This document shows positions 1 through 45,556 of a stretch of DNA of 46,563 bases, one piece after another; the first letter of the stretch is position 1, and each line of letters begins with the position of its first letter. The notes below the pieces were generated by a model. The model had not been told where the DNA came from. It ran no database searches and saw only the letters and a list, made by a program, of their open reading frames with translations. A program made the position numbers and the translations under genes. This stretch comes from a virus (lineage: Duplodnaviria; Heunggongvirae; Uroviricota; Caudoviricetes): positions 1 to 46,563 of IMG/VR virus record IMGVR_UViG_2861038214_000001, one strand, 5' to 3'.

Positions 1-201
1 TTACCCATTGGCGCGGCTTAAGAGCTTATTTTTGAATTCACAATGGTCACGATATAACCATCTTGCTCGTCCGTGGATAACTTTGGCTTTAGGCAGGTCG
101 CCGGACTTAATCCGGTCATAGATGAAGGTCTTACCGAAGCCAGTATCGGCCATGATGAATTTCAAATCAACCAGTGAATCAGGCTGTAGTTCGTGTTGCA
201 T
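1..201 (-). CDS. torI: TorI/AlpA-family excisionase-like recombination directionality factor (66 aa)
   Basis: ORF track 1..201; small AlpA/Xis-like DNA-binding protein (…KFIMADTGFGKTFIYDRIKSGDLPKAK…); matches my recollection of KplE1 TorI; GGAG SD upstream. Confidence 0.75.
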   Translation of the reverse strand: MQHELQPDSLVDLKFIMADTGFGKTFIYDRIKSGDLPKAKVIHGRARWLYRDHCEFKNKLLSRANG

Positions 202-7336: not shown

Positions 7337-7771
7337 TTATTCTTGTTCTCTGGTCAAATTATATAGTTGGAAAACAAGGATGCATATATGAATGAACGAT
7401 GCAGAGGCAATGCCGATGGCGATAGTGGGTATCATGTAGCCGCTTATGCTGGAAAGAAGCAATAACCCGCAGAAAAACAAAGCTCCAAGCTCAACAAAAC
7501 TAAGGGCATAGACAATAACTACCGATGTCATATACCCATACTCTCTAATCTTGGCCAGTCGGCGCGTTCTGCTTCCGATTAGAAACGTCAAGGCAGCAAT
7601 CAGGATTGCAATCATGGTTCCTGCATATGATGACAATGTCGCCCCAAGACCATCTCTATGAGCTGAAAAAGAAACACCAGGAATGTAGTGGCGGAAAAGG
7701 AGATAGCAAATGCTTACGATAACGTAAGGAATTATTACTATGTAAACACCAGGCATGATTCTGTTCCGCAT
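7337..7771 (-). CDS. rexB: RexB, membrane component of Rex abortive-infection/exclusion system (144 aa, about 4 TM helices)
   Basis: ORF track; size, hydrophobicity and sequence match lambda RexB as I recall it; position between cI and N. Confidence 0.8.
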   Translation of the reverse strand: MRNRIMPGVYIVIIPYVIVSICYLLFRHYIPGVSFSAHRDGLGATLSSYAGTMIAILIAALTFLIGSRTRRLAKIREYGYMTSVVIVYALSFVELGALFFCGLLLLSSISGYMIPTIAIGIASASFIHICILVFQLYNLTREQE

Positions 7772-7786
7772 AATTACTCCTGATAA

Positions 7787-8626
7787 TTAATCCTTAACTT
7801 TGCCCACCTGCCTTTTAAAACATTCCAGTATATCACTTTTCATTCTTGCGTAGCAATATGCCATCTCTTCAGCTATCTCAGCATTGGTGACCTTGTTCAG
7901 AGGCGCTGAGAGATGGCCTTTTTCTGATAGATAATGTTCTGTTAAAATATCTCCGGCCTCATCTTTTGCCCGCAGGCTAATGTCTGAAAATTGAGGTGAC
8001 GGGTTAAAAATAATATCCTTGGCAACCTTTTTTATATCCCTTTTAAATTTTGGCTTAATGACTATATCCAATGAGTCAAAAAGCTCCCCTTCAATATCTG
8101 TTGCCCCTAAGACCTTTAATATATCGCCAAATACAGGTAGCTTGGCTTCTACCTTCACCGTTGTTCGGCCGATGAAATGCATATGCATAACATCGTCTTT
8201 GGTGGTTCCCCTCATCAGTGGCTCTATCTGAACGCGCTCTCCACTGCTTAATGACATTCCTTTCCCGATTAAAAAATCTGTCAGATCGGATGTGGTCGGC
8301 CCGAAAACAGTTCTGGCAAAACCAATGGTGTCGCCTTCAACAAACAAAAAAGATGGGAATCCCAATGATTCGTCATCTGCGAGGCTGTTCTTAATATCTT
8401 CAACTGAAGCTTTAGAGCGATTTATCTTCTGAACCAGACTCTTGTCATTTGTTTTGGTAAAGAGAAAAGTTTTTCCATCGATTTTATGAATATACAAATA
8501 ATTGGAGCCAACCTGCAGGTGATGATTATCAGCCAGCAGAGAATTAAGGAAAACAGACAGGTTTATTGAGCACTTATCTTTCCCTTTATTTTTGCTGCGG
8601 TAAGTCGCATAAAAACCATTCTTCAT
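7787..8626 (-). CDS. rexA: RexA, sensor/activator of Rex exclusion system (279 aa)
   Basis: ORF track; length and sequence (MKNGFYATYRSKNKGKDK…) match lambda RexA as I recall it; AT-rich like lambda rex. Confidence 0.8.
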   Translation of the reverse strand: MKNGFYATYRSKNKGKDKCSINLSVFLNSLLADNHHLQVGSNYLYIHKIDGKTFLFTKTNDKSLVQKINRSKASVEDIKNSLADDESLGFPSFLFVEGDTIGFARTVFGPTTSDLTDFLIGKGMSLSSGERVQIEPLMRGTTKDDVMHMHFIGRTTVKVEAKLPVFGDILKVLGATDIEGELFDSLDIVIKPKFKRDIKKVAKDIIFNPSPQFSDISLRAKDEAGDILTEHYLSEKGHLSAPLNKVTNAEIAEEMAYCYARMKSDILECFKRQVGKVKD

Positions 8627-8738
8627 AATTCAATCCATTTACTATGTTATGTTCTGAGGGGAGTGAAAATTCCCCTAATTCGATGAAGATTCTTGCTCAA
8701 TTGTTATCAGCTATGCGCCGACCAGAACACCTTGCCGA

Positions 8739-9386
8739 TCAGCCAAACGTCTCTTCAGGCCACTGCGCCTTAACTACCTTGCCTATGATGCGGCAGCTAT
8801 GGTCGCAATCCAGTGTTCTATATGCCGGGTTTAAAGGTACCAGGTAACTAACCCCTGCATCCTTCTCATACTTCTTGAACGTTGCCTCTGAATCACCATT
8901 TGCAGAAGCCACGCAGAAATCCCCAGACTCTACCGGCTCAGCCGGATCAACGAGTATCAGCATGCCTTCCGGAAAACTTGGACGAACCCCCTGAGGCGCC
9001 GTCATTGAATGCCCCTTCACCTCAAGCCAGAAAGCTTTTTCGCTGGCTTTTGTGGTCGTTGGGACCCATGCCTTTGCATCGCTGGCTGTGTAGCTTCCCA
9101 CCTCCGAAAATGGCCCGGCCTGCACTGAAGAAAATAACGGGTATTCATATTGGCGAAATACGGCGTCTGAATCCTCGCCAAACATTATTTTTGCCGGAGA
9201 TACGCCGAGTGCCGCCCCAAGAACCAGCGCGTCATCCGCGCTAACCTTTCTTGTTCCTAACTCGTAGTTCCCCAGGCGTGAAGGCGCAGCCCAGCCGCAA
9301 AGCTTGGCCAATTGAGCCTGGCTAAGTCCTTTAGCTTCTCTAAGGGACTTGATCCTTTCCCCGATAATTTCATGCATCGTTTTCAT
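8739..9386 (-). CDS. cI: CI-type prophage repressor (HTH_XRE N-domain, S24 LexA-like autoprotease C-domain)
   Basis: ORF track; Ala-Gly cleavage site (VQAGPF), Ser (GHSM) and Lys (FKKY) dyad conserved; divergent from cro. Confidence 0.85.
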
Positions 9387-20704: not shown

Positions 20705-22120
20705 ATGAACGAAGATGATATCGCAATCGGCAGTTGCTCGCCGGAGCTGATCACGCTCCTGGACAGCGATGACATTCAGCCGGGTATGTCGGCTGGCTAT
20801 CAGACCTGCAAAACGATTTACCTCTTCCACCCGTTGGGCGGGAAAATGGTAGATCGCCCGATCAAGATGGCGATGAACGAGTCGCGCACGGTTCACATTT
20901 CGCAGGCGTATGGCATTGAGCAGCGTCTCCGCGATGCATTTGAGCGGGAGTGGAAAGCACTGGGCGCCGATAAGCACATCGCTAATGCGGCGCGCATCTC
21001 TCGCATTTACGGTGTTTCGGCGATCGCAATGCTGGTTGATAACCAGGAGCCGTCCTCTGCGGTGGACTACCGCACGCTGTATAAGCACAACGTGACATTC
21101 AACATTCTCGACCCGCTGAACACTGCCGGAAGCATCGTCCTGAACCAGGATCCGAACGCGCAGGACTTTCAGAAGGTCGACGGGATCAGAGTGGCGGGCA
21201 AGCCGTATCACAAATCCCGCTGTGTTGTGCAACAGAACGAGGACCCGATTTATCTGGCCTATAACTCTGCTGCCTTTGGCTTTACCGGTCGCAGCGTTTA
21301 CCAGCGCGCTCTGTTCCCGCTGAAATCCTTCATCCAGACCATGCGCACCGATGACATGGTTTCCGTGAAGGGTGGCTTGCTGGTAACGAAGATTCAGGGA
21401 CCGAGCTCAGTCGTCAACAACATGATGCAAAAGCTCAGCGGCATCAAACGAATGATGCTGAAGCGAGGGAAGACAGGCGAAGTCCTGCAGATCGGCGCAA
21501 ATGACAGCATCGAATCCATCGACCTGAGCAACCTGGAAAAGCCGCTCGACTCCTCCCGGAATCACATTCTGGAGAATATCGCTGCGGCAGCTGACATGCC
21601 GGCTATCATTCTGAACTCGGAAACATTCGCCCAGGGCTTCGGCGAGGGGACGGAAGACGCTCGATCTGTTGCAGTCTACATCGACAACATCCGCGAGTGG
21701 CTTGAGCCGCTGTATGACTATTTCATCCGTATTTGCCAGTATCGCGCCTGGAGCATTGAGTTTTTCAATTCTCTGCGTGCTGACTTCCCGGAGCTTAAAA
21801 ACACGTACAGCCTGTATTTCTCCTCATGGATTAACAACTTCGAATATCGCTGGCCGTCATCCCTGAAAGAGCCGGAAAGCGAAAAAGTGAAGGTCGACGA
21901 AATCCGCTTTAAGGCCATCGTCAGCATGCTGGAAGTCCTTCTCCCGCAGGTCAACACGGATGATGAGAACCGCGCTCTTCTTATCGAGTGGGCGCAGACC
22001 AACGCGAACGCTAACGAAAGCCTGTTCCCGCAGCGGCTCGATCTCGATATCGACTCTCTAAAGGCTAATCGGCCTGAACAGCCACGGGATGAAGAGCCCG
22101 GCGGCGAGATGATGCTATGA
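20705..22120 (+). CDS. portal protein (putative)
   Basis: ORF track; size and position after terminase. Confidence 0.7.
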   Translation: MNEDDIAIGSCSPELITLLDSDDIQPGMSAGYQTCKTIYLFHPLGGKMVDRPIKMAMNESRTVHISQAYGIEQRLRDAFEREWKALGADKHIANAARISRIYGVSAIAMLVDNQEPSSAVDYRTLYKHNVTFNILDPLNTAGSIVLNQDPNAQDFQKVDGIRVAGKPYHKSRCVVQQNEDPIYLAYNSAAFGFTGRSVYQRALFPLKSFIQTMRTDDMVSVKGGLLVTKIQGPSSVVNNMMQKLSGIKRMMLKRGKTGEVLQIGANDSIESIDLSNLEKPLDSSRNHILENIAAAADMPAIILNSETFAQGFGEGTEDARSVAVYIDNIREWLEPLYDYFIRICQYRAWSIEFFNSLRADFPELKNTYSLYFSSWINNFEYRWPSSLKEPESEKVKVDEIRFKAIVSMLEVLLPQVNTDDENRALLIEWAQTNANANESLFPQRLDLDIDSLKANRPEQPRDEEPGGEMML

Positions 22121-22950: not shown

Positions 22951-24564
22951 GTGGCTATTTTTGGCAGCGGGATAATGTTCCGTCAGGGGAAGTTCGTCTT
23001 CCTGATCCAGCGCTCGGATGATGGCACATGGTGCCAGCCGGGCGGGACGATAGAGCCGGGAGAGTTAGCCATAGACGCCGCACGGCGCGAGGTGCTGGAG
23101 GAAACAGGCTATCAGTACGATGGCCCGCTGACGCCGCACAGCGTACATGGTGACTACCTGACCTACCGCGCCGACGTGCCGGAGCAATTCGAAGCGAAGA
23201 TAAACGACGAATCGCTGGCCGCCGGATGGTTCCATATTGACGATCTGCCAAAGCCGCTTCATCAGCCATTCGCTGAAATGCTGGCGCAGCAGGCGCTCAA
23301 CGAAACCGACGTGGCCGCGCTCATCGCTGACGGAACGCTCAGCAGCCCGCAATATTTTTACAACATGTGGATGTTCGCCATCCGGGTGACCGGAACAGGG
23401 GTTGCCTGGCGATCTGCAGATCAGGAGATGACGTTCCGTAACCCGGACGACTATCTCACCCCTGAATTTCTCCAGCGGGTAGCTGGCGTACCACTTATCT
23501 GGCTTCACCCCGAAAAAAGAACACTTGATAGCGACGAGTTCTCAAAGCGCGTTATTGGCACCCTGACAAATGCCTGGGTTGCCGATAAGGGCGAAGTGTG
23601 GGCCGTTGCGCGTGTGTACGACGCCGAAGCTGCTGAAATTATGGCAACAAGGCAATTAAGCACCTCGCCAACTGTGAAGTTCTCAGAGGTTGCTCAATCA
23701 ATCATTGTCGACGGTCAGCCTCTACTGGTGGAGCCATCCCCCGAGCTGCTCGACCACGTTGCAATTTGTGAACAGGGCGTGTGGGACAAGCTCCTTGCCC
23801 CTACCGGTGTTAAATCTGATTCCATTCCTGAAGAGGCTGAAAAGATGGACGAGGAAAAAATCGTAGCGCTGATTAATAAGGCGATCGATGCGCGTTTGGC
23901 TAAGGCCGACGAAGAGAAGGAAGCGAAAGCCAAGGCTGACGCCGAAGAGGCCGCCAAGAAAGAAAAGGCTGACGCAGAAGACAAAGAAGCGGAAGAGGCG
24001 AAAGCTAAAGCCGACGCGGAAGAGAAAGCCGCGAAGGAAAAAGCTGATGCTGAAGCCAAAGAAAAGGCGGATGCCGAAGAGGCTGAGAAAATGGCAAAAG
24101 AAAAAGCCGACTCTCAAATCCTCCAGGAAATTGCTGAGCTTCGCTCCCGCATTCCTACCGAACTGAGCGACGAAGAGCGCAACGAAGTTGCAGAAGCGCA
24201 GGTGAAAGCCGATAGCGTCTTCTCCAGCTTTGGCAAACGCGCCCCGATCCCGCTGTCCGGTGAAAAACCGATGGCGTATCGCCGCCGTCTGATGATTCAA
24301 CTGCAGGAGCATTCTCCGGACTACAAAGCCGTCGATCTCTCTGCCATCGCTGATTCTCAACTGCTGAGCACTGCCGAAAAGCATATCTACGCTGATGCGC
24401 AGAAGGCGGCCAGCCTGTCAGTTGGTCCCGGTATGCTGCGCGAGATTAAGCGCGCCGATGCAACCGGTCGCCAGATCAGCACCTTTGAAGGCGATCCCGC
24501 CGTCACCTGGGCGCCGTTCCAGTCTGGCAAGCGTCAGGTCACCAGTTTTAACAACCAGGCTTAA
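22951..24564 (+). CDS. NUDIX hydrolase domain fused to head protease/scaffold-like protein (537 aa)
   Basis: ORF track; complete Nudix box G-x5-E-x7-REV-x-EE-x-GY ([24 protein letters not shown]) at residues about 30-53; central domain of unknown fold; KAKADAEE-type coiled-coil repeats; sits where protease/scaffold normally lies. Confidence 0.7.
23880..24125 (+). repeat. in-frame imperfect tandem repeats encoding (E/K)-A-K-A-D-A-E-E heptad-like units
   Basis: repeated GCnGAnGCnGAAGAG-type units seen in DNA and protein. Confidence 0.7.
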
Positions 24565-39180: not shown

Positions 39181-39229
39181 ATCAAAGCCCACGCCAGTGG
39201 GATTTCATAAATAACACATTGATAACATC

Positions 39230-39254
39230 AAACCCGCTTCGGCGGGTTTTTTTT
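39230..39254 (+). terminator. intrinsic terminator (AAACCCGC-TTCG-GCGGG + T8)
   Basis: seen in sequence after moron. Confidence 0.7.
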
Positions 39255-39275
39255 ATGCCTAAATCCGGAGGAGAC

Positions 39276-41423
39276 ATGGCACTAACCCTTTTGGCTACAA
39301 ACAACGCAGAAAGCACGCTGGCTTCTGCTATCAGCGCAACCGACACGTCGCTGATCGTTAGCGCTGGAACTGGTGCCGAGTTCCCTGATGCTGTGGCAGG
39401 CGAGAGTTATTTTAAGCTCACTCTCACCGATGCCGCCACCGGCTCACAGGTTGAGATCGTGAACGTGACAGCTAAGGCTGGAGACATCTTCACGATTGAG
39501 CGTGCGCAGGAAGGAACGCTGGCGCGTGCGTGGGCGGCCAATGATATGGTTGCCAACATGATGACGGCGGACACGCTGAACATTATCGCTCAATATTCCC
39601 AGCAGGCAGCTGCATCAGCAGCACTGGCTGAAGAGTATGCAGATAACGCTTCTGACTACGCACAGAATAAGTTCACGTTCTATAAGACTGCCAGCGATCC
39701 TGATGGCACCATCGCAGGGCTGGCAGCAACTACTGACGGCCAGTCTTTCTGGGTAGCCCAGGGTCCGGATGCGCTTTCTTCTGCATGGCAGTATCAAAAC
39801 AAAGCAGGCGTGGCCGTATTGCAGGCGAAGCAGCCGGGTACAGCGGCCATAACAGGGACAACCCGCGAGTTTCCGACGCTGGCTGCGGCACAGGCTGATG
39901 CTGACGCAGGGAATATACAACCAGGAGCGAAATGCTGGGTGACAAGCGCGGATGATAGCTCTCTTGCAAATGAATATATAAACAACTCCGGAACTTTGCA
40001 GCCTACAGGAGTAATCTCTCCTTCTTCAAAAACAATCGATAATAAAATTAATGAACGCCTCGTCCCAGGTGAATACAGGCCTGGTTATTTCCCGGCCTTC
40101 TTTGACAGGAATGGTATGGTGCCAGCATGGTTTGATGGCGGCAAATTTGATGTGGCAGGACTGGGGCCAAATGTTACACAGGTTGTTTCTGAAATTCCAA
40201 ACGAATGGGCCCAGAAGTTTATCCCGCAAGGAGACTTTTCACCTTATTACTTTCCTTTTTTATATGACCAACAAGGGAACGTATATGCTTGGTTTAATGG
40301 TGGGCTATTCGATGCTCCAGGTCTTGGCCCGGTATTGCAGGAATATGTCAAAAACCTGGTGTCTGGTGGGGAAGTTGATGCGGTACGTTCCTTCATCGAA
40401 GGAGATCAGTACAAGTTCCTTTTCAAAAATAGCCGTATTTTTGCTGGCCAGTCTACCAGCCTAAACATTGCTTTTACCGGCGATTCGTGGACAGAGAAAA
40501 ACACCATTCCTCAGTCTTTAATTAATATTCTTGGTGGTACATACAAAGACCCTGGGTGGATTAGTTGTTCAAACAGAACAGATGGTGTCATGTCTGGAAT
40601 ATCACCAGTAACCGCAACAAACTTTACGAAATATGACGGTGGCAGCAATAACACGAACATTCCGCCGTATGGCTGTGGCCCTGATGGCAACGGATACTAC
40701 AACAACAACACTGTTGGTTCGCTCGTATGGACGGGCGTGACCGTAACAAATCTTTCGGTATTTTACTATGATGGGTCTGGAACGTTCACCATCACCATCG
40801 ACAGCAATGCACCTGTAACAATCACGGGAGGGAATACAGGGACTGCCAAGAAGTATGATTTCAGCGGACTTAGCGCTACTGCACATACGGTGACAATCCA
40901 AAGCACCGGTACTGGTGTTGTTTCCATTCTTGGTATGTATGGTAAAAATAACTCAATATCATCAGGGGTGACTGTATCCAGGATGGGTAATGGAGGAGCA
41001 TTTGCAAGTGACTATTTCAACTTTTCATCATGGATAAAGCCAGTAGCTCAATACCTTGATATAGACCTCCTTTTTATTATTCTTGGAACGAATGACTTCC
41101 GGATGAGTCAGGGGCTAGCTGAGTACAAATCTGGGATTATTGAAATAATTACTAAATATAGAAGCGCAACTCCTGATATTTGCATTTGCCTTATGTCCCC
41201 TGCACAGTGTAACGCCACAGGAACACCCGCACTGTCAGAATACGATAAAGCAATGAGGGAAATAGCGGTTGAATATAATGTAAATTTCATTAGTGGTTAT
41301 CAATTATTCCCCAAAGTGTATAGCAGTTCAGGAGGTGCGTGGGAAGATGCCTTGCATCTTAGCGCCTTGGGCGCATATGTACTAACGAGAAAGATCAAAA
41401 AAGAATTTTTCCTGGGAGCTTAA
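39276..41423 (+). CDS. tailspike/tail fiber with conserved N-terminal anchor domain and C-terminal SGNH/GDSL esterase domain
   Basis: ORF track 39219..41423 trimmed to ATG after GGAGGAG SD; GDS motif (IAFTGDSWTE) and DxxH (WEDALHL) near C-terminus. Confidence 0.75.
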   Translation: MALTLLATNNAESTLASAISATDTSLIVSAGTGAEFPDAVAGESYFKLTLTDAATGSQVEIVNVTAKAGDIFTIERAQEGTLARAWAANDMVANMMTADTLNIIAQYSQQAAASAALAEEYADNASDYAQNKFTFYKTASDPDGTIAGLAATTDGQSFWVAQGPDALSSAWQYQNKAGVAVLQAKQPGTAAITGTTREFPTLAAAQADADAGNIQPGAKCWVTSADDSSLANEYINNSGTLQPTGVISPSSKTIDNKINERLVPGEYRPGYFPAFFDRNGMVPAWFDGGKFDVAGLGPNVTQVVSEIPNEWAQKFIPQGDFSPYYFPFLYDQQGNVYAWFNGGLFDAPGLGPVLQEYVKNLVSGGEVDAVRSFIEGDQYKFLFKNSRIFAGQSTSLNIAFTGDSWTEKNTIPQSLINILGGTYKDPGWISCSNRTDGVMSGISPVTATNFTKYDGGSNNTNIPPYGCGPDGNGYYNNNTVGSLVWTGVTVTNLSVFYYDGSGTFTITIDSNAPVTITGGNTGTAKKYDFSGLSATAHTVTIQSTGTGVVSILGMYGKNNSISSGVTVSRMGNGGAFASDYFNFSSWIKPVAQYLDIDLLFIILGTNDFRMSQGLAEYKSGIIEIITKYRSATPDICICLMSPAQCNATGTPALSEYDKAMREIAVEYNVNFISGYQLFPKVYSSSGGAWEDALHLSALGAYVLTRKIKKEFFLGA

Positions 41424-42179: not shown

Positions 42180-42419
42180 CTATGCTCTCAGATGTTTGAC
42201 GCATAAGAAGAATTGCAACTTACCACCATCAGTAAGCTCCACCATTATCGTGTTAGTGCCATCTGAAATTTCAGTCCATCCATGTGACTGTAGGACCTCG
42301 TAGTCGATCCCAGGCTTGCTGAGCTTGAGGCCCAGGCCATCGGATTTACGTAGTATTCTGCGAACAAGAGTGTCACTTTTTGTACTCATTTTGGTGGCGG
42401 AGTGTCTTGGATAAAACAT
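42180..42419 (-). CDS. small basic hypothetical protein (70-79 aa), divergent from LexA-box operon
   Basis: ORF track; no convincing SD at either candidate start. Confidence 0.3.
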   Translation of the reverse strand: MFYPRHSATKMSTKSDTLVRRILRKSDGLGLKLSKPGIDYEVLQSHGWTEISDGTNTIMVELTDGGKLQFFLCVKHLRA

Positions 42420-42517
42420 GTATTGATATCAATTATTTGTGTGAAAAGCAATTTAAGAGGCTACCGGAAGATAAAACAAAGTCATCATCAAGTATTGATC
42501 CGACTCTTTGATGAAAC

Positions 42518-42537
42518 TACTGTATATAAAAACAGTA
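42518..42537 (+). promoter_or_regulatory. LexA (SOS) box TACTGTATATAAAAACAGTA
   Basis: perfect CTGT-N8-ACAG with AT-rich spacer, about 18 nt upstream of the 42555 ATG. Confidence 0.7.
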
Positions 42538-42554
42538 TCAATCAGAGGCAGATC

Positions 42555-42794
42555 ATGCACCGTCAGTCAGACATCGCCGCGGCTTTCCGCGAGTCCATTT
42601 TGCGCAGTTCCAAGGGGTTCCAGTACCTTCACACCCGAGACTTCGTTACCGCACTGCTCCTGCGCGGCATCCACTTATCCGAGGTGGAGGCGAACTCCTG
42701 GATCGCACGCGAGCAGACGTATTTCGTCGATAAGACGCCGGACCATAGCGAAAACAGGCTGTGGATGATGGCCAACATGGGGAGGGTTCTGTAA
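42555..42794 (+). CDS. hypothetical protein (79 aa), first gene of LexA-box operon
   Basis: ORF track 42402..42794 trimmed to ATG with AGAGG SD. Confidence 0.55.
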   Translation: MHRQSDIAAAFRESILRSSKGFQYLHTRDFVTALLLRGIHLSEVEANSWIAREQTYFVDKTPDHSENRLWMMANMGRVL

Positions 42795-43111
42795 TGGGCT
42801 TTCCATCACCCGCGACGGACTACACGGAACAGCGATTAACGGTTAACTCGATCTGCAATGTCGGGCCAAATACGCGCCTCTTCGAGCGATCAGGCGGTTA
42901 TGTTGTGCTGGATATCTCCCTGAAGCCATCACAAGGCAGTCAGGTTCTGATCCAGCACGGAGGCGGGACAGAGCTTGCCACGCTGAGAGGAAGGTCGCTG
43001 ATTACCGAAGATGGCGAGGCGATCGAGGGCGAAGCCCTGGACGATGTTGCGGTCATCGGGGTCGTGACATTTACTATCTGCGATGTTCGCTCTGATAATT
43101 CTATTATTTAA
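42794..43111 (+). CDS. UmuD'-like (S24 peptidase-fold) protein lacking N-terminal arm and catalytic Ser/Lys (105 aa)
   Basis: ORF track 42761..43111 trimmed to ATG (TAATG overlap, GGGGAGGG SD); GFPSPATDYTEQR aligns to UmuD GFPSPAADYVEQR; SGGYV replaces SGDSM. Confidence 0.6.
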   Translation: MGFPSPATDYTEQRLTVNSICNVGPNTRLFERSGGYVVLDISLKPSQGSQVLIQHGGGTELATLRGRSLITEDGEAIEGEALDDVAVIGVVTFTICDVRSDNSII

Positions 43112-43122
43112 CTGGGGTATAT

Positions 43123-44154
43123 ATGGCGCTGAAGCTATTAGCCAATAATAACGCAAAGAGTGTGCTCGCTGCGGGTATTAGCGCGTCCGCTACCGTTATT
43201 ACCGTGGGTACTGGAGCGGGGTCATTATTCCCTTCCCCTGTATCTGGGCAGAGTTATTTCAAATTAACGATAACCGACGCGGCCACGAAAACAATTTCTG
43301 AAATTATGCACGTCACGTCTGTATCCGGTGACGTGATGACAGTAATTCGTGGTCAGGAAGGAACTACGGCACGCGTATGGTCAACGAATGACATTGTCGC
43401 GAATTTAATGACCGCCGGATCATTGTTATCATTCCTGCAGATCAGCAATAACCTGTCAGAAATTAAAGATGCCGGTGAGGATGCGATAAATGAAGCCCGT
43501 TATAACCTCGGAATATCTGATTCCTCTGGTTTTGTCGGGCGTTCACTTGGCGCTCCAAAAGCTTTCTATGCAAACGGAACCTATACGCGATCTCCTCTGG
43601 CCCGTTATGCAAAAGTAACGTTGACCGGTGCCGGTGGCGGCGGTGGCGGCTGCCAGGCCTCCAACAATACAGAAACCTTCTCCGGTGCTGGCGGCGGCGC
43701 GGGCGCGACCATTATCGTATGGGTTGACCTGTCTGCTGCCAGTTCTTACGCGATTACTGTCGGCAAGGGTGGTAAGGGCGGAGTTGGCGCAGTAAGTGGT
43801 GCGGATGGTGGTGCTACCTCGTTTGCCAGCCTGTTCTCAGCTCCTGGCGGGAAAGGCGGCGTGAAGTCAGGCGTGTCCAATACCGCCGGCGGCGCCGGAG
43901 GTACGGCGGCGACCGGAGATATCAGGATCAACGGTGGTACCGGCTCAGATGGACAGACAGGCTCAAGCCTTCTGACGGGCAACGGCGGGGCGTCGTATTT
44001 TGGCGGCGGTGGCCGGGCGGGTTCTCAGGCCGGTATTGCTGGCGCAGCTCCCGGATCCGGTGGTGGTGGCGCGTATGACCTCGGGTTTACCGGTACGGCA
44101 TTTACCGGTGGTGATGGTGCTACTGGCATGGCGATCGTGGAAGAATTCGCGTAA
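43123..44154 (+). CDS. second tail fiber/receptor-binding protein: same N-terminal anchor domain, Gly-rich C-terminal domain
   Basis: ORF track; N-terminal about 100 aa align with the 39276 protein. Confidence 0.7.
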   Translation: MALKLLANNNAKSVLAAGISASATVITVGTGAGSLFPSPVSGQSYFKLTITDAATKTISEIMHVTSVSGDVMTVIRGQEGTTARVWSTNDIVANLMTAGSLLSFLQISNNLSEIKDAGEDAINEARYNLGISDSSGFVGRSLGAPKAFYANGTYTRSPLARYAKVTLTGAGGGGGGCQASNNTETFSGAGGGAGATIIVWVDLSAASSYAITVGKGGKGGVGAVSGADGGATSFASLFSAPGGKGGVKSGVSNTAGGAGGTAATGDIRINGGTGSDGQTGSSLLTGNGGASYFGGGGRAGSQAGIAGAAPGSGGGGAYDLGFTGTAFTGGDGATGMAIVEEFA

Positions 44155-44158
44155 TGGC

Positions 44159-45316
44159 TTACACTCCTGCACGACCATCGATGTAATCAGCCCACCACTG
44201 CATCATTTCTCTGCGCTTATCGAGATACTGCGCATGGTTGTAAATACCGCGCACAGATCCGCCGTTGGCATGTGCCAGTTGCACTTCAATAGCGTCAGCA
44301 GGCCATTCGTGCTCGTTCATAATTGTGCTGAATTCATGCCTGAATCCGTGACCGCTTTCCAGACCCTCATAGCCGATTTGTTTGATCACAAGCAATACCG
44401 CGTTCTCGCAGATTGGCTTCTTCTTATCGTTGCGACCGGCAAAAACAAACTCTGATACTGGTTTAGTGATTGAGCTTAGCGTAGTGAGAAGTTCAACCAC
44501 CTGGTCTGACATAGGAACCACATGAATTTTGCGACCCTTCATCACACTGGCGTCGATGGTGATAATCCTGTTTTCAAAATCGACGTTCTTCCATTGCATG
44601 GAACGAAGCTCTTTCGTTCTTAGGGCTGTATAGCGTAAAACCTTGGTCGCAATGAGCGATACGATGCTTCCTGAAAATGTTGCCAGTGCTTTGTTAAATG
44701 CCGGGATCTGGTCTGCAGGAAGAAACGGGAAGTTTTTCTTGCGGTATCCCTTCATGGCGTCAGCAAGGTCAGGTGCCGGGTTATATTTAGCCCTACCAGT
44801 GACAATAGCGTAACGGAAAACCTCGCCACATCTTCTGCGGGCTTTGTTGGCTCGCTCCATTGCACCGCGATCTTCAAATCTGCGGATTACTTCCAGCAGT
44901 TGCATCGGCTCAATATCCAGAATCTCGAGACCGCCGATGATGGGTAAAATGTCGTCATCAAACATTTTGGCAAGTTCAGTCGCATACCCTACAGACCACA
45001 CTTGCTTCTTGTGCTCGTACCATTCCTTGTAAATGGCACTAAAGGAGTTGTTGTTAGACGAAGCCTTTTTCGCTTTTACCGGATCTATGCCAACCGAGAT
45101 GTCTTTCCTCGCAGTCCATGCTTTATCCCTTGCCTCCTGCAAAGTCATAAGCGGATATTTTCCGACAGTCAGGATTTTCTCCTTACCGTCAATCTTGTAG
45201 CGAAGCTGCCATACCTTTTTCCCTGACACAGGGACATAAAGGTACAGGCCATTACCATCGAGAAGGCGGTATGGTTTTTCTTTCGGCTTTGCTGCTTCAA
45301 TCTGCTTAACGGTGAG
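44159..45316 (-). CDS. intS: tyrosine integrase, P4-type (IntS-like, 385 aa from MLTVKQ…)
   Basis: ORF track 44159..45355; DUF4102 arm-binding N-domain; catalytic R…HxxR…Y region; start chosen at internal ATG by analogy to IntS (GTG at 45355 is the alternative). Confidence 0.85.
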   Translation of the reverse strand, partial: LTVKQIEAAKPKEKPYRLLDGNGLYLYVPVSGKKVWQLRYKIDGKEKILTVGKYPLMTLQEARDKAWTARKDISVGIDPVKAKKASSNNNSFSAIYKEWYEHKKQVWSVGYATELAKMFDDDILPIIGGLEILDIEPMQLLEVIRRFEDRGAMERANKARRRCGEVFRYAIVTGRAKYNPAPDLADAMKGYRKKNFPFLPADQIPAFNKALATFSGSIVSLIATKVLRYTALRTKELRSMQWKNVDFENRIITIDASVMKGRKIHVVPMSDQVVELLTTLSSITKPVSEFVFAGRNDKKKPICENAVLLVIKQIGYEGLESGHGFRHEFSTIMNEHEWPADAIEVQLAHANGGSVRGIYNHAQYLDKRREMMQWWADYIDGRAGV

Positions 45317-45480
45317 CATGGGTAAAAATCCGGTGGGTAAAATTATTTTATCCACTTTTTACCCGTCATGGAGTGCGGCTGTCAACGATCTGACGCGAAC
45401 CATTACGAACTGTGAATCTATGGAAGGCTTGCTATTCAGGGGATTTTGCGGACTGGTACGGATGGGAGCGAACTGATAAA
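45317..45480. promoter_or_regulatory. att arm / intS promoter region with GGGTAAAA direct and inverted repeats
   Basis: three GGGTAAAA(A) copies around the int start; candidate integrase arm-type or RDF sites. Confidence 0.4.
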
Positions 45481-45556
45481 TGGTGTCCCCTGCAGGAATC
45501 GAACCTGCAATTAGCCCTTAGGAGGGGCTCGTTATATCCATTTAACTAAGAGGACA
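45481..45556 (-). tRNA. argW: tRNA-Arg (anticodon CCU)
   Basis: minus strand reads GTCCTCTTAGTTAAATGGATATAACGAGCCCCTCCTAAGGGCTAATTGCAGGTTCGATTCCTGCAGGGGACACCA; cloverleaf with CCU anticodon, encoded CCA. Confidence 0.9.
45495..45510. repeat. 16-bp segment of argW T-arm duplicated at 221..236 (candidate att core)
   Basis: exact match seen in sequence. Confidence 0.5.

What the first reader, a model, noticed from the sequence alone, without database searches (positions are those of the whole stretch)
42390..43111. SOS-box-controlled two-gene cassette encoding a pre-truncated, catalytically dead UmuD'-like protein, between the two receptor-binding-protein genes
A perfect LexA box (TACTGTATATAAAAACAGTA, 42518..42537) sits just upstream of a translationally coupled gene pair. 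Gene A (42555..42794, 79 aa) matches no family I recognise. Gene B (42794..43111, 105 aa) aligns to UmuD starting exactly at the residue after the RecA-mediated cleavage site (GFPSPATDYTEQR vs UmuD C|GFPSPAADYVEQR), so it is born as the processed UmuD' form. It has SGGYV where UmuD has SGDSM and Arg where the catalytic Lys should be, so it cannot self-cleave. No umuC-like polymerase gene follows; the cassette ends 12 nt before the Gly-rich tail fiber gene. A divergent small basic ORF and a 10-bp palindrome (TTGATATCAA) lie upstream. This looks like a DNA-damage-inducible regulatory or mimicry module (UmuD' mimic that could titrate UmuD, Pol V, RecA filament or LexA/CI), or an impC-impA-like remnant repurposed by the phage, possibly coupling SOS to expression of the second fiber.
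Basis: partly seen in the sequence, partly recalled or inferred. Interest (0 to 1): 0.8.

Follow-up and report, generated by a model that had tools for sequence, protein, structure and literature searches.

The report
SOS-controlled phage UmuD'-like gene pair
A prophage carries a DNA-damage-inducible two-gene cassette, copied from the host's umuDC control region, that makes a ready-processed, protease-dead cousin of the mutagenesis protein UmuD' plus a small unknown partner; the kind is known from phage P1 HumD, but this shortened two-gene form is common in Klebsiella and E. coli prophages and has not been studied.

Summary
The 20-bp LexA box at 42518-42537 is identical to the E. coli K-12 umuDC operator and sits in the same promoter frame (TTGATC, 17 nt, TACTGT). 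It precedes two coupled genes.

The cassette is not unique:
- It occurs in 158 of 5426 complete E. coli genomes and in at least 576 IMG/VR contigs.
- It is in many Klebsiella, Enterobacter and Erwinia phages, nearly always at the end of the tail-fibre region.
- It usually keeps the LexA box and never has a umuC.

Its closest known relatives are P1 HumD and N15 gp26, which are LexA-controlled, born-processed UmuD' homologues. Gene B scores well below the NCBIfam HumD cut-off, so it is a diverged short subclass.

Most likely it acts on host UmuC (Pol V) through its invariant N-terminal arm during SOS. Whether it activates or blocks Pol V, and what gene A does, remain untested. I rate it a new variant of a known kind, of moderate interest.

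The parts
42495..42523 (+). Inferred sigma-70 promoter: -35 TTGATC (42495-42500), 17-nt spacer, -10 TACTGT (42518-42523, the left half of the LexA box)
   Evidence: The same hexamers and spacing occur upstream of K-12 umuD and of the cassettes in RothC, HK140, mEp390, phiES15 and BTP1. The generic promoter scan did not call it, because TACTGT matches only 3 of 6 positions of TATAAT. The promoter is inferred, not shown.
42518..42537 (+). LexA (SOS) box TACTGTATATAAAAACAGTA
   Evidence: It is identical to the E. coli K-12 umuDC operator and matches the palindromic consensus at 18 of 20 positions. A box at the same place is kept in all 10 reference loci and in 60 of 80 IMG/VR loci.
42544..42548 (+). 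Ribosome-binding site (AGAGG) of gene A
   Evidence: Read directly from the sequence, 6 nt before the ATG. The region resembles the umuD leader AGGCAGAT.
42555..42794 (+). Gene A: 79-aa winged-helix protein of unknown function (PHROG 3893)
42781..42785 (+). GGAGG Shine-Dalgarno of gene B, inside the end of gene A; stop and start overlap as TAATG (42792-42796)
   Evidence: Read directly from the sequence. HK140 has the same TAATG junction, and the gap is at most 4 nt in distant pairs.
42794..43111 (+). Gene B: 105-aa born-processed UmuD'/HumD-like protein with an S24 fold, the Ser60 loop deleted and no Ser-Lys dyad
   Evidence: Substitutions against two 85%-identical relatives fall 10, 4 and 35 on codon positions 1, 2 and 3, which indicates purifying selection.
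43123..44154 (+). Glycine-rich tail-fibre gene 12 nt downstream; no terminator in between, so it is probably co-transcribed (context only, not part of the conserved cassette)
   Evidence: Pfam Gly_rich_2 and tail-fibre PHROGs. No terminator was called between B and this gene. RothC has the same arrangement, while most other phages lack this gene after B.
42180..42389 (-). Divergent small ORF (69 aa from Met11), lineage-specific and not part of the conserved cassette
   Evidence: It stays open from Met11 in two relatives, with substitutions of 5/2/7 and 4/1/9 by codon position. PGAP does not annotate it. No homologue was found in the phage collection. DNA similarity to Klebsiella phages starts only at about 42510.

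Best explanation
This is a phage accessory cassette descended from a umuD(C) operon. In the lysogen, LexA sits on a box that overlaps the -10 of a umuDC-type promoter and keeps the cassette off. DNA damage (RecA*, then LexA cleavage) turns it on at the same time as the SOS regulon. Transcription from the late operon, which runs in the same direction, may also read into it; that was not tested. Gene B is made directly in the UmuD' form. It therefore needs neither RecA*-mediated cleavage nor its own protease site, which has decayed. Through its invariant N-terminal arm (GFPSPAxDYxE) and its preserved dimer core, B most likely engages the host's UmuC polymerase, as P1 HumD does. That would change the timing or activity of Pol V translesion synthesis while the damaged prophage is being induced. 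Gene A is a small, non-basic winged-helix protein translated in step with B. It most likely works as B's protein partner (stabiliser, adaptor or regulator) rather than as a DNA-binding regulator. Shown here: the box and promoter homology, the fold, the loss of the active site, the conservation of the pair, and the absence of umuC. Inferred: LexA control in vivo, binding to UmuC, the direction of the effect (activation or inhibition), and any A-B contact.
Against: The short class has lost features that UmuD' uses. First, the Ser60 loop, Lys97 and Glu93 are gone; in the Pol V model these hold the UmuC C-terminal carboxylate. Second, the residues that contact the RecA filament (Y52, V54, F94, D91, E93; PMC9926225) are lost, whereas the long class (HK140_028) keeps them. 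B scores 43 bits against a 120-bit HumD cut-off and gets no Pfam Peptidase_S24 hit. Nothing here shows binding to UmuC, and nothing explains gene A. A few loci have B without A (L068, L090, L093), and eight have the LexA box replaced.
Confidence: 0.5

Rival explanations
1. Decoy or dominant-negative. B keeps the UmuC-binding arm and the dimer core but lacks the cleft and the RecA surface. It would therefore form dead-end complexes with UmuC, or heterodimers with UmuD/UmuD', and damp Pol V mutagenesis or the UmuD2C replication checkpoint so that phage replication proceeds.
For: The S60, K97 and E93 cleft residues and the RecA-contact residues are lost only in the short class, while the arm stays invariant.
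Against: The only tested relative, HumD, supports mutagenesis rather than blocking it (P1 record; the paper's abstract is recalled from memory). In the model, docking of the UmuC tail is by beta-sheet edge addition, which may not need those side chains.
Confidence: 0.17
2. Modulator of RecA* or of an S24-family repressor. The A-B pair would bind activated RecA filaments, or LexA or CI C-terminal domains, and tune the speed or reversibility of induction, as DinI, Hex or an antirepressor does.
Against: The UmuD residues that contact RecA are not kept. The window's CI and RothC's CI look self-cleaving, so no antirepressor is needed. The cassette occurs with both cleavable and non-cleavable repressor types (P1, N15). 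A and B match no named antirepressor family in Pfam, PHROGs, NCBIfam or PADLOC.
Confidence: 0.13
3. Split LexA-like regulator. A (winged helix) and B (S24 dimerisation core) would assemble non-covalently into a DNA-binding factor made only during SOS, for example to control the downstream fibre gene or host genes.
For: The domain order of winged helix followed by an S24 core, split exactly at the cleavage-site glycine, mirrors LexA. The two genes are translationally coupled. UmuDAb with DdrR is a precedent for a UmuD-family protein working with a small partner on DNA (title of PMC11332147).
Against: A's helix 3 and wing are neutral to acidic in most members. A shows no profile similarity to the LexA N-terminal domain. 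No DNA motif other than the LexA box is conserved around the cassette, since similarity starts at the -35. A is dispensable in some loci. B's arm is the UmuC-specific motif.
Confidence: 0.1
4. Decaying remnant with no current function.
For: The catalytic site is lost and the protein is shortened. Some loci carry truncated B, replaced promoters or fusions of A to invertase fragments.
Against: Third-position-biased substitution; invariant motifs across genera; confident folds; hundreds of intact copies.
Confidence: 0.03

Closest known systems
Bacteriophage P1 HumD (with N15 gp26, phiKO2 gp23 and HK140_028; NCBIfam NF051876 'HumD family')
   Same: It starts M-GFPSPA, the UmuD' N-terminus. A LexA box lies just upstream. 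It has no umuC partner. It sits in a temperate phage. It shares a C-terminal extension beyond the end of UmuD.
   Different: HumD-type proteins are about 129 aa. They keep the Ser60-region loop (Ser in P1, Thr in N15 and HK140), Lys97, Asp91, Glu93, Phe94 and Tyr52. The window protein is 105 aa, lacks all of these, and scores 43 bits against the 120-bit cut-off. P1 and N15 have no gene A.
E. coli UmuD / UmuD' (Pol V accessory subunit; S24 peptidase)
   Same: Identical operator and homologous promoter and leader. Same fold. The N-terminal arm motif is near-identical (GFPSPATDYTEQR against GFPSPAADYVEQR).
   Different: There is no 24-residue pro-peptide, no Cys-Gly cleavage site, no Ser-Lys dyad and no umuC downstream. 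An unrelated gene sits between the promoter and the umuD'-like reading frame.
Plasmid impCAB / mucAB / rumAB operons
   Same: Mobile-element copies of umuDC under LexA control. impCAB also has a small first gene.
   Different: ImpC is DinI-like (from memory), whereas gene A has a winged-helix fold. Those operons keep a cleavable UmuD homologue and the polymerase gene; neither is present here.
LexA-controlled antirepressor operons of temperate phages (186 Tum, N15 AntC, Gifsy dinI-gfoA)
   Same: Small phage genes placed directly under a LexA box and lying outside the immunity region (PMC3121763).
   Different: Those serve phages whose repressors cannot self-cleave. This prophage's CI has the cleavage site and the dyad. 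No sequence-family link was found.
Acinetobacter UmuDAb with DdrR
   Same: A UmuD-family protein that works together with a small protein encoded next to it (PMC11332147, listed).
   Different: UmuDAb is a full-length, self-cleaving, DNA-binding repressor. Homology between DdrR and gene A was not compared here.

Membership tests
S24 LexA/UmuD-type self-cleaving peptidases (Pfam PF00717) | S24 beta-barrel fold | tested here: met
S24 LexA/UmuD-type self-cleaving peptidases (Pfam PF00717) | Ser-Lys catalytic dyad | tested here: not met
   The loop carrying Ser60 is deleted, and the column aligned to Lys97 is Ala or Thr and not conserved.
S24 LexA/UmuD-type self-cleaving peptidases (Pfam PF00717) | Ala/Cys-Gly cleavage site preceded by an N-terminal segment | tested here: not met
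   The protein starts Met-Gly, with Gly aligned to UmuD Gly25.
S24 LexA/UmuD-type self-cleaving peptidases (Pfam PF00717) | Score above the Pfam gathering threshold | tested here: not met
   No Pfam family matched even at E up to 1.
HumD family (NCBIfam NF051876, equivalog) | Born-processed N-terminus M-GFPSPA, LexA box upstream, no cognate umuC | tested here: met
HumD family (NCBIfam NF051876, equivalog) | Model score at or above the curated cut-off (120 bits) | tested here: not met
   43.4 bits for the window protein against 221.8 bits for HK140_028.
HumD family (NCBIfam NF051876, equivalog) | Complements UmuD'; dimerises; binds UmuC and RecA filaments | not testable with these tools
   This needs genetics and biochemistry. 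The residues that contact RecA in UmuD are not conserved in the short class.
umuDC / impCAB operon remnant | umuC/impB gene or pseudogene adjacent | tested here: not met
   tblastn with K-12 UmuC finds nothing in the window or in 87 related loci.
umuDC / impCAB operon remnant | First gene is DinI/ImpC-like | tested here: not met
   Gene A has winged-helix topology and its best structural neighbours are winged-helix proteins. No DinI family hit appeared.
SOS (LexA) regulon member | High-quality LexA box overlapping the promoter | tested here: met
   The box is identical to the umuDC operator, matches the consensus at 18 of 20 positions and overlaps the inferred -10.
SOS (LexA) regulon member | LexA binding and damage-induced transcription | not testable with these tools
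   This needs EMSA, a reporter or RT-qPCR in lexA(Ind-) and wild type.
LexA-controlled phage antirepressor module | Cognate repressor that cannot self-cleave | tested here: not met
   The window's CI has a QAG site, GHSM and a Lys. RothC's CI has GDSM and a Lys.

The most novel reading that the evidence does not exclude
The A-B pair would be a distinct SOS-triggered effector that evolved from HumD. In this reading, the emptied substrate cleft of the UmuD' core no longer holds the UmuC C-terminal tail (LLRVK-COOH). Instead it holds the conserved C-terminal tail of the winged-helix partner (NMGRV[LI]-COOH, disordered in the model). The pair would then use the intact arm to capture or re-programme host UmuC, or another partner. 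Prophages of Klebsiella and E. coli would thereby gain control over SOS mutagenesis, and so over the rate at which their hosts evolve antibiotic resistance.
Probability: 0.15. Interest if true: 0.7.

Novelty: new variant of a known kind. Interest (0 to 1): 0.45.

Why it matters
Pol V is a major source of damage-induced mutations. UmuD cleavage is the slow step that gates it: Pol V forms about 45 min after SOS induction (abstract of PMC6375631). A prophage gene that supplies a ready-made UmuD'-like subunit under LexA control could remove or reverse that delay. This short two-gene form is carried by hundreds of prophages in clinical Klebsiella pneumoniae and E. coli. If it alters Pol V activity, lysogeny would change mutation supply under fluoroquinolones and other SOS-inducing drugs. 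It could also help damaged phage genomes survive induction. The natural deletion of the Ser60 loop with an intact arm is a ready-made separation-of-function variant for testing current structural models of Pol V. The kind itself (phage HumD) has been known since 1999, so this is an extension, not a discovery of principle.

Tried and rejected
- The Gifsy-1 and RtcR paper (PMC9879122) was read because it mentions UmuD, LexA and antirepressors. It concerns unrelated genes.
- The HumD paper (PMC94175) is not held, so statements about its results rest on the P1 GenBank note and on memory of the abstract.
- No solved Pol V complex exists in the PDB copy, so UmuC-contact residues could be taken only from a published AlphaFold model.
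- Gene A against UmuC and against LexA by profile comparison showed no similarity.
- Pfam, NCBIfam and PADLOC give nothing for gene A. BFVD gives only its own homologue.
- The afdb50 fold library was unavailable.
- The divergent ORF has no phage homologue.
- Rfam finds only tRNA-Arg in the window. The inverted-repeat tool finds nothing in the region.
- The generic promoter scan does not call the umuDC-type promoter.

Full report
**What the window is.** The window is a complete lambdoid prophage at the argW tRNA site of E. coli WI2 (NZ_LT838200.1). It runs from torI to intS, tRNA-Arg and yfdC. The immunity region encodes a CI repressor next to rexA and rexB. That CI has a QAG cleavage site, a GHSM serine motif and a lysine, so it looks like a normal RecA-cleavable repressor. 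The finding lies at the far end of the late region. Upstream are a 734-aa tailspike with an SGNH/GDSL esterase domain and a 249-aa gene. Downstream is a 343-aa glycine-rich fibre gene, followed by int.

**The observation.** The sequence is as described.
- TACTGTATATAAAAACAGTA lies at 42518-42537. The core pattern CTGT-N8-ACAG occurs three times in the window against 0.46 expected, and only this copy has the AT-rich centre and TA flanks.
- The 20-mer is identical to the operator of the E. coli K-12 umuDC operon. The surrounding DNA is homologous too: TTGATC, a 17-nt spacer, then TACTGT, and a similar AGGCAGAT leader before the start codon. The cassette therefore carries a umuDC-type promoter-operator, not just a chance LexA box.
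- The generic promoter scan does not call this promoter, because TACTGT matches TATAAT poorly. The promoter is inferred from homology.
- Gene A (42555-42794) has an AGAGG ribosome-binding site. Gene B (42794-43111) starts inside the stop codon of A (TAATG), behind a GGAGG.

**Gene B.**
- phmmer aligns B to UmuD and UmuD' starting exactly at Gly25, the residue after the RecA-mediated cleavage site (E 1.7e-4).
- PHROGs places it in phrog_3469 'UmuD-like protein' (E 3.7e-46) and more weakly in phrog_811.
- Pfam gives no hit at all.
- Multiple alignments and the strand order of the model show that the first strand (residues 27-32) joins the second (35-40) through a two-residue turn. The UmuD segment S57-G69, which carries the nucleophile Ser60, is therefore deleted, not substituted. 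The column aligned with Lys97 is Ala or Thr and is not conserved.

**Gene A.**
- A belongs to phrog_3893, of unknown function (E 2.7e-38).
- An exhaustive search of 1.84 billion representative proteins finds only 72 clusters, almost all about 79 aa.
- The model is confident (pLDDT 91) and has the canonical winged-helix order helix-strand-helix-helix-strand-strand.
- The third helix and the wing, which bind DNA in classical members, are neutral or acidic in most family members. Whole-protein charge is only about -3 to +5. I therefore think A binds protein rather than DNA.
- A shows no profile similarity to UmuC or to the LexA N-terminal domain.

**Distribution and context.**
- The cassette is common. 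Megablast finds it in 158 of 5426 complete E. coli genomes and in about 30 phage records, mostly Klebsiella.
- The protein database holds hundreds of 90%-identity clusters of B, some with thousands of members.
- IMG/VR holds at least 576 contigs encoding a relative.
- In annotated phages the pair sits after the last tail-fibre gene and before int, attP or the end of the late region. Examples are HK140 (genes 027 and 028, back-to-back with a dinI homologue), mEp390, phiES15, Erwinia phage Midgardsormr38 and Klebsiella phage RothC.
- P1 (humD) and N15 (gene 26) have a B-type gene alone, again with a LexA box. The P1 record annotates that site and notes that HumD functionally complements UmuD'.
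- Every one of ten reference loci has exactly one CTGT-N8-ACAG, just upstream of the cassette.
- Among the 80 best IMG/VR loci, 60 have a strict box. It lies about 35 bp before A, or about 36 bp before B in three loci that lack A. About 70 loci have A directly upstream of B.
- tblastn with UmuC finds nothing in the window or in 87 related loci.
- The most distant A homologues I could place (33-35% identical) are still followed within 1-3 nt by a 106-107-aa B-type gene.
- Pairwise identities of A and B across 53 distinct pairs correlate (r = 0.84). A and B are inherited and kept as a unit.
- B is under purifying selection: 10, 4 and 35 substitutions at codon positions 1, 2 and 3 against two relatives.

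**Two classes of B.**
- The long class is about 129 aa (P1 HumD, N15 gp26, HK140_028). It keeps the Ser60-region loop (Ser in P1, Thr in N15 and HK140), Lys97, and Tyr52, Asp91, Glu93 and Phe94.
- The short class is 104-109 aa (this window, Klebsiella phages, mEp390, phiES15, Erwinia phages). It has lost all of these.
- NCBIfam's HumD equivalog model scores HK140_028 at 222 bits and the window protein at 43 bits, against a cut-off of 120.
- Gene A occurs with both classes, so it predates the deletion or was exchanged between classes.

**What the lost and kept residues mean.**
- The RecA-UmuD cryo-EM study names Y52, residue 54, F94, D91 and E93 as the UmuD surface that binds the RecA filament (PMC9926225). 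The short class does not keep them.
- A published AlphaFold model of Pol V places the C-terminal strand of UmuC (LLRVK-COOH, confirmed) on the edge of the UmuD' sheet. Its carboxylate contacts S36, T71, K73 and E69 in UmuD' numbering, which are Ser60, Thr95, Lys97 and Glu93 of UmuD. The same model places one UmuD' N-terminal arm next to the UmuC active site. The paper recalls that an armless UmuD' dimerises but does not support mutagenesis (PMC11791011).
- In the short class the arm is the best-conserved part of the protein: M1 G2 F3 P4 S5 P6 A7 D9 Y10 E12 R14 are at least 95% conserved. The cleft residues are gone.
- The simplest reading is that B still addresses a UmuC-type polymerase through its arm. 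The host supplies that polymerase, since umuC is in 5423 of 5426 complete E. coli genomes. The rest of the interaction has changed.

**Most likely mechanism (confidence about 0.5).**
- LexA represses the cassette in the lysogen, and DNA damage induces it together with the SOS regulon.
- B is made already 'processed'. It skips the slow RecA-dependent UmuD cleavage that delays Pol V, and it acts on host UmuC while the damaged prophage is being induced.
- A is its co-translated protein partner.
- I cannot decide between activation (the HumD precedent) and inhibition (suggested by the lost cleft and RecA surface). I list the decoy version as the main rival (0.17).
- Other rivals are a modulator of RecA* or of S24-family repressors (0.13), a split LexA-like DNA-binding factor (0.10) and a decaying remnant (0.03).
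- An antirepressor role for this prophage is unlikely, because its CI and RothC's CI look self-cleaving.
- An impCAB remnant is excluded by A's fold and by the absence of any umuC trace.

**An untested idea.** The A family ends in a conserved tail, NMGRV followed by one hydrophobic residue. This tail is disordered in the model. It resembles the UmuC tail LLRVK in having Arg-Val-x at the C-terminus. If it docks on B where the UmuC tail docks on UmuD', A would compete with or hand over to UmuC. Complex prediction could test this quickly, but I could not run it.

**The second fibre gene.** The glycine-rich fibre gene starts 12 nt after B, and no terminator was called between them. In this lineage and in RothC it is probably co-transcribed from the SOS promoter. 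Most other carriers of the cassette lack that gene, so this cannot be the cassette's general purpose.

**Verdict.** The kind is known: a phage-borne, LexA-controlled, born-processed UmuD' homologue without umuC (HumD). This locus is a diverged short subclass with a conserved, uncharacterised winged-helix partner. It is widespread in clinically relevant Enterobacterales prophages, and I found no study of it in the searchable literature. I rate it a new variant of a known kind, interest 0.45.

Noticed in passing
window 42180-42389 (minus strand): An unannotated divergent ORF (69 aa from Met11) stays open in two 92-96%-identical relatives and shows third-position-biased substitutions (5/2/7 and 4/1/9). 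It has no homologue in the phage collection and no family hit. It starts about 130 bp from the LexA box, so the two may share a regulatory region.
   Followed up: partly
window 42422-42433: A perfect 12-bp palindrome ATTGATATCAAT lies in the intergenic region between the divergent ORF and the LexA box. It is kept in close E. coli relatives but lies outside the part shared with Klebsiella phages. About 11 such palindromes are expected by chance in the window.
   Followed up: partly
L029, L031, L032, L039, L062, L081, L084, L087 (about 300-230 bp upstream of B): In eight related viral loci the LexA box and promoter are replaced, right up to the ribosome-binding site of gene A, by one GC-rich hairpin-containing element (GCCCGGTGCGTAAATCGCGCACGCCGGG...GGTATCCCTACCGCGAC). 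These cassettes have presumably lost SOS control.
   Followed up: no
L038 and L069 (upstream of gene A); proteins P0140, P0224, P0235: Only the right half of the LexA box remains in these two loci. It abuts a 26-bp inverted repeat, GTCTTCCCACCATGATCGGGGAAGAC, that looks like a DNA-invertase crossover site. In other genomes gene A is fused at its C-terminus to fragments of a resolvase/invertase (Pfam PF00239, PF02796). Invertible tail-fibre segments seem to recombine next to this cassette.
   Followed up: no
window 39219-41423 and 43123-44154: The two receptor-binding-protein genes that flank the cassette share a similar N-terminal anchor region of about 110 aa but have different distal domains: an SGNH/GDSL esterase and a glycine-rich domain (PF21722). 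This suggests a dual or branched fibre set.
   Followed up: partly
window 42555-43111 compared with L012 and L013: The cassette is mosaic. Against the same two relatives, gene A differs at 4-9 nucleotides but gene B at 49. A recombination breakpoint therefore lies near the A/B junction, even though the pair is co-inherited overall.
   Followed up: partly
L011 (Salmonella phage BTP1) 2966-3228: BTP1 has a good LexA box (TACTGTATTAATATACAGTA) followed by a truncated B-type reading frame (MEFPSPAA...). That frame is not annotated on that strand and lies between gtrA and int.
   Followed up: no
window 20705-22120 and 22951-24564: RefSeq labels a gene just after the large terminase as 'anti-CBASS protein Acb1 family' and a 537-aa gene in the head-module region as 'NUDIX hydrolase'. 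These are unusual labels for those positions, and I did not check them.
   Followed up: no
window 1-201, 7337-9386 and 44159-45555: The prophage uses the KplE1/CPS-53 attachment arrangement (torI at one end, intS and tRNA-Arg argW at the other). Its body is a full lambdoid genome with CI, rexA and rexB.
   Followed up: no
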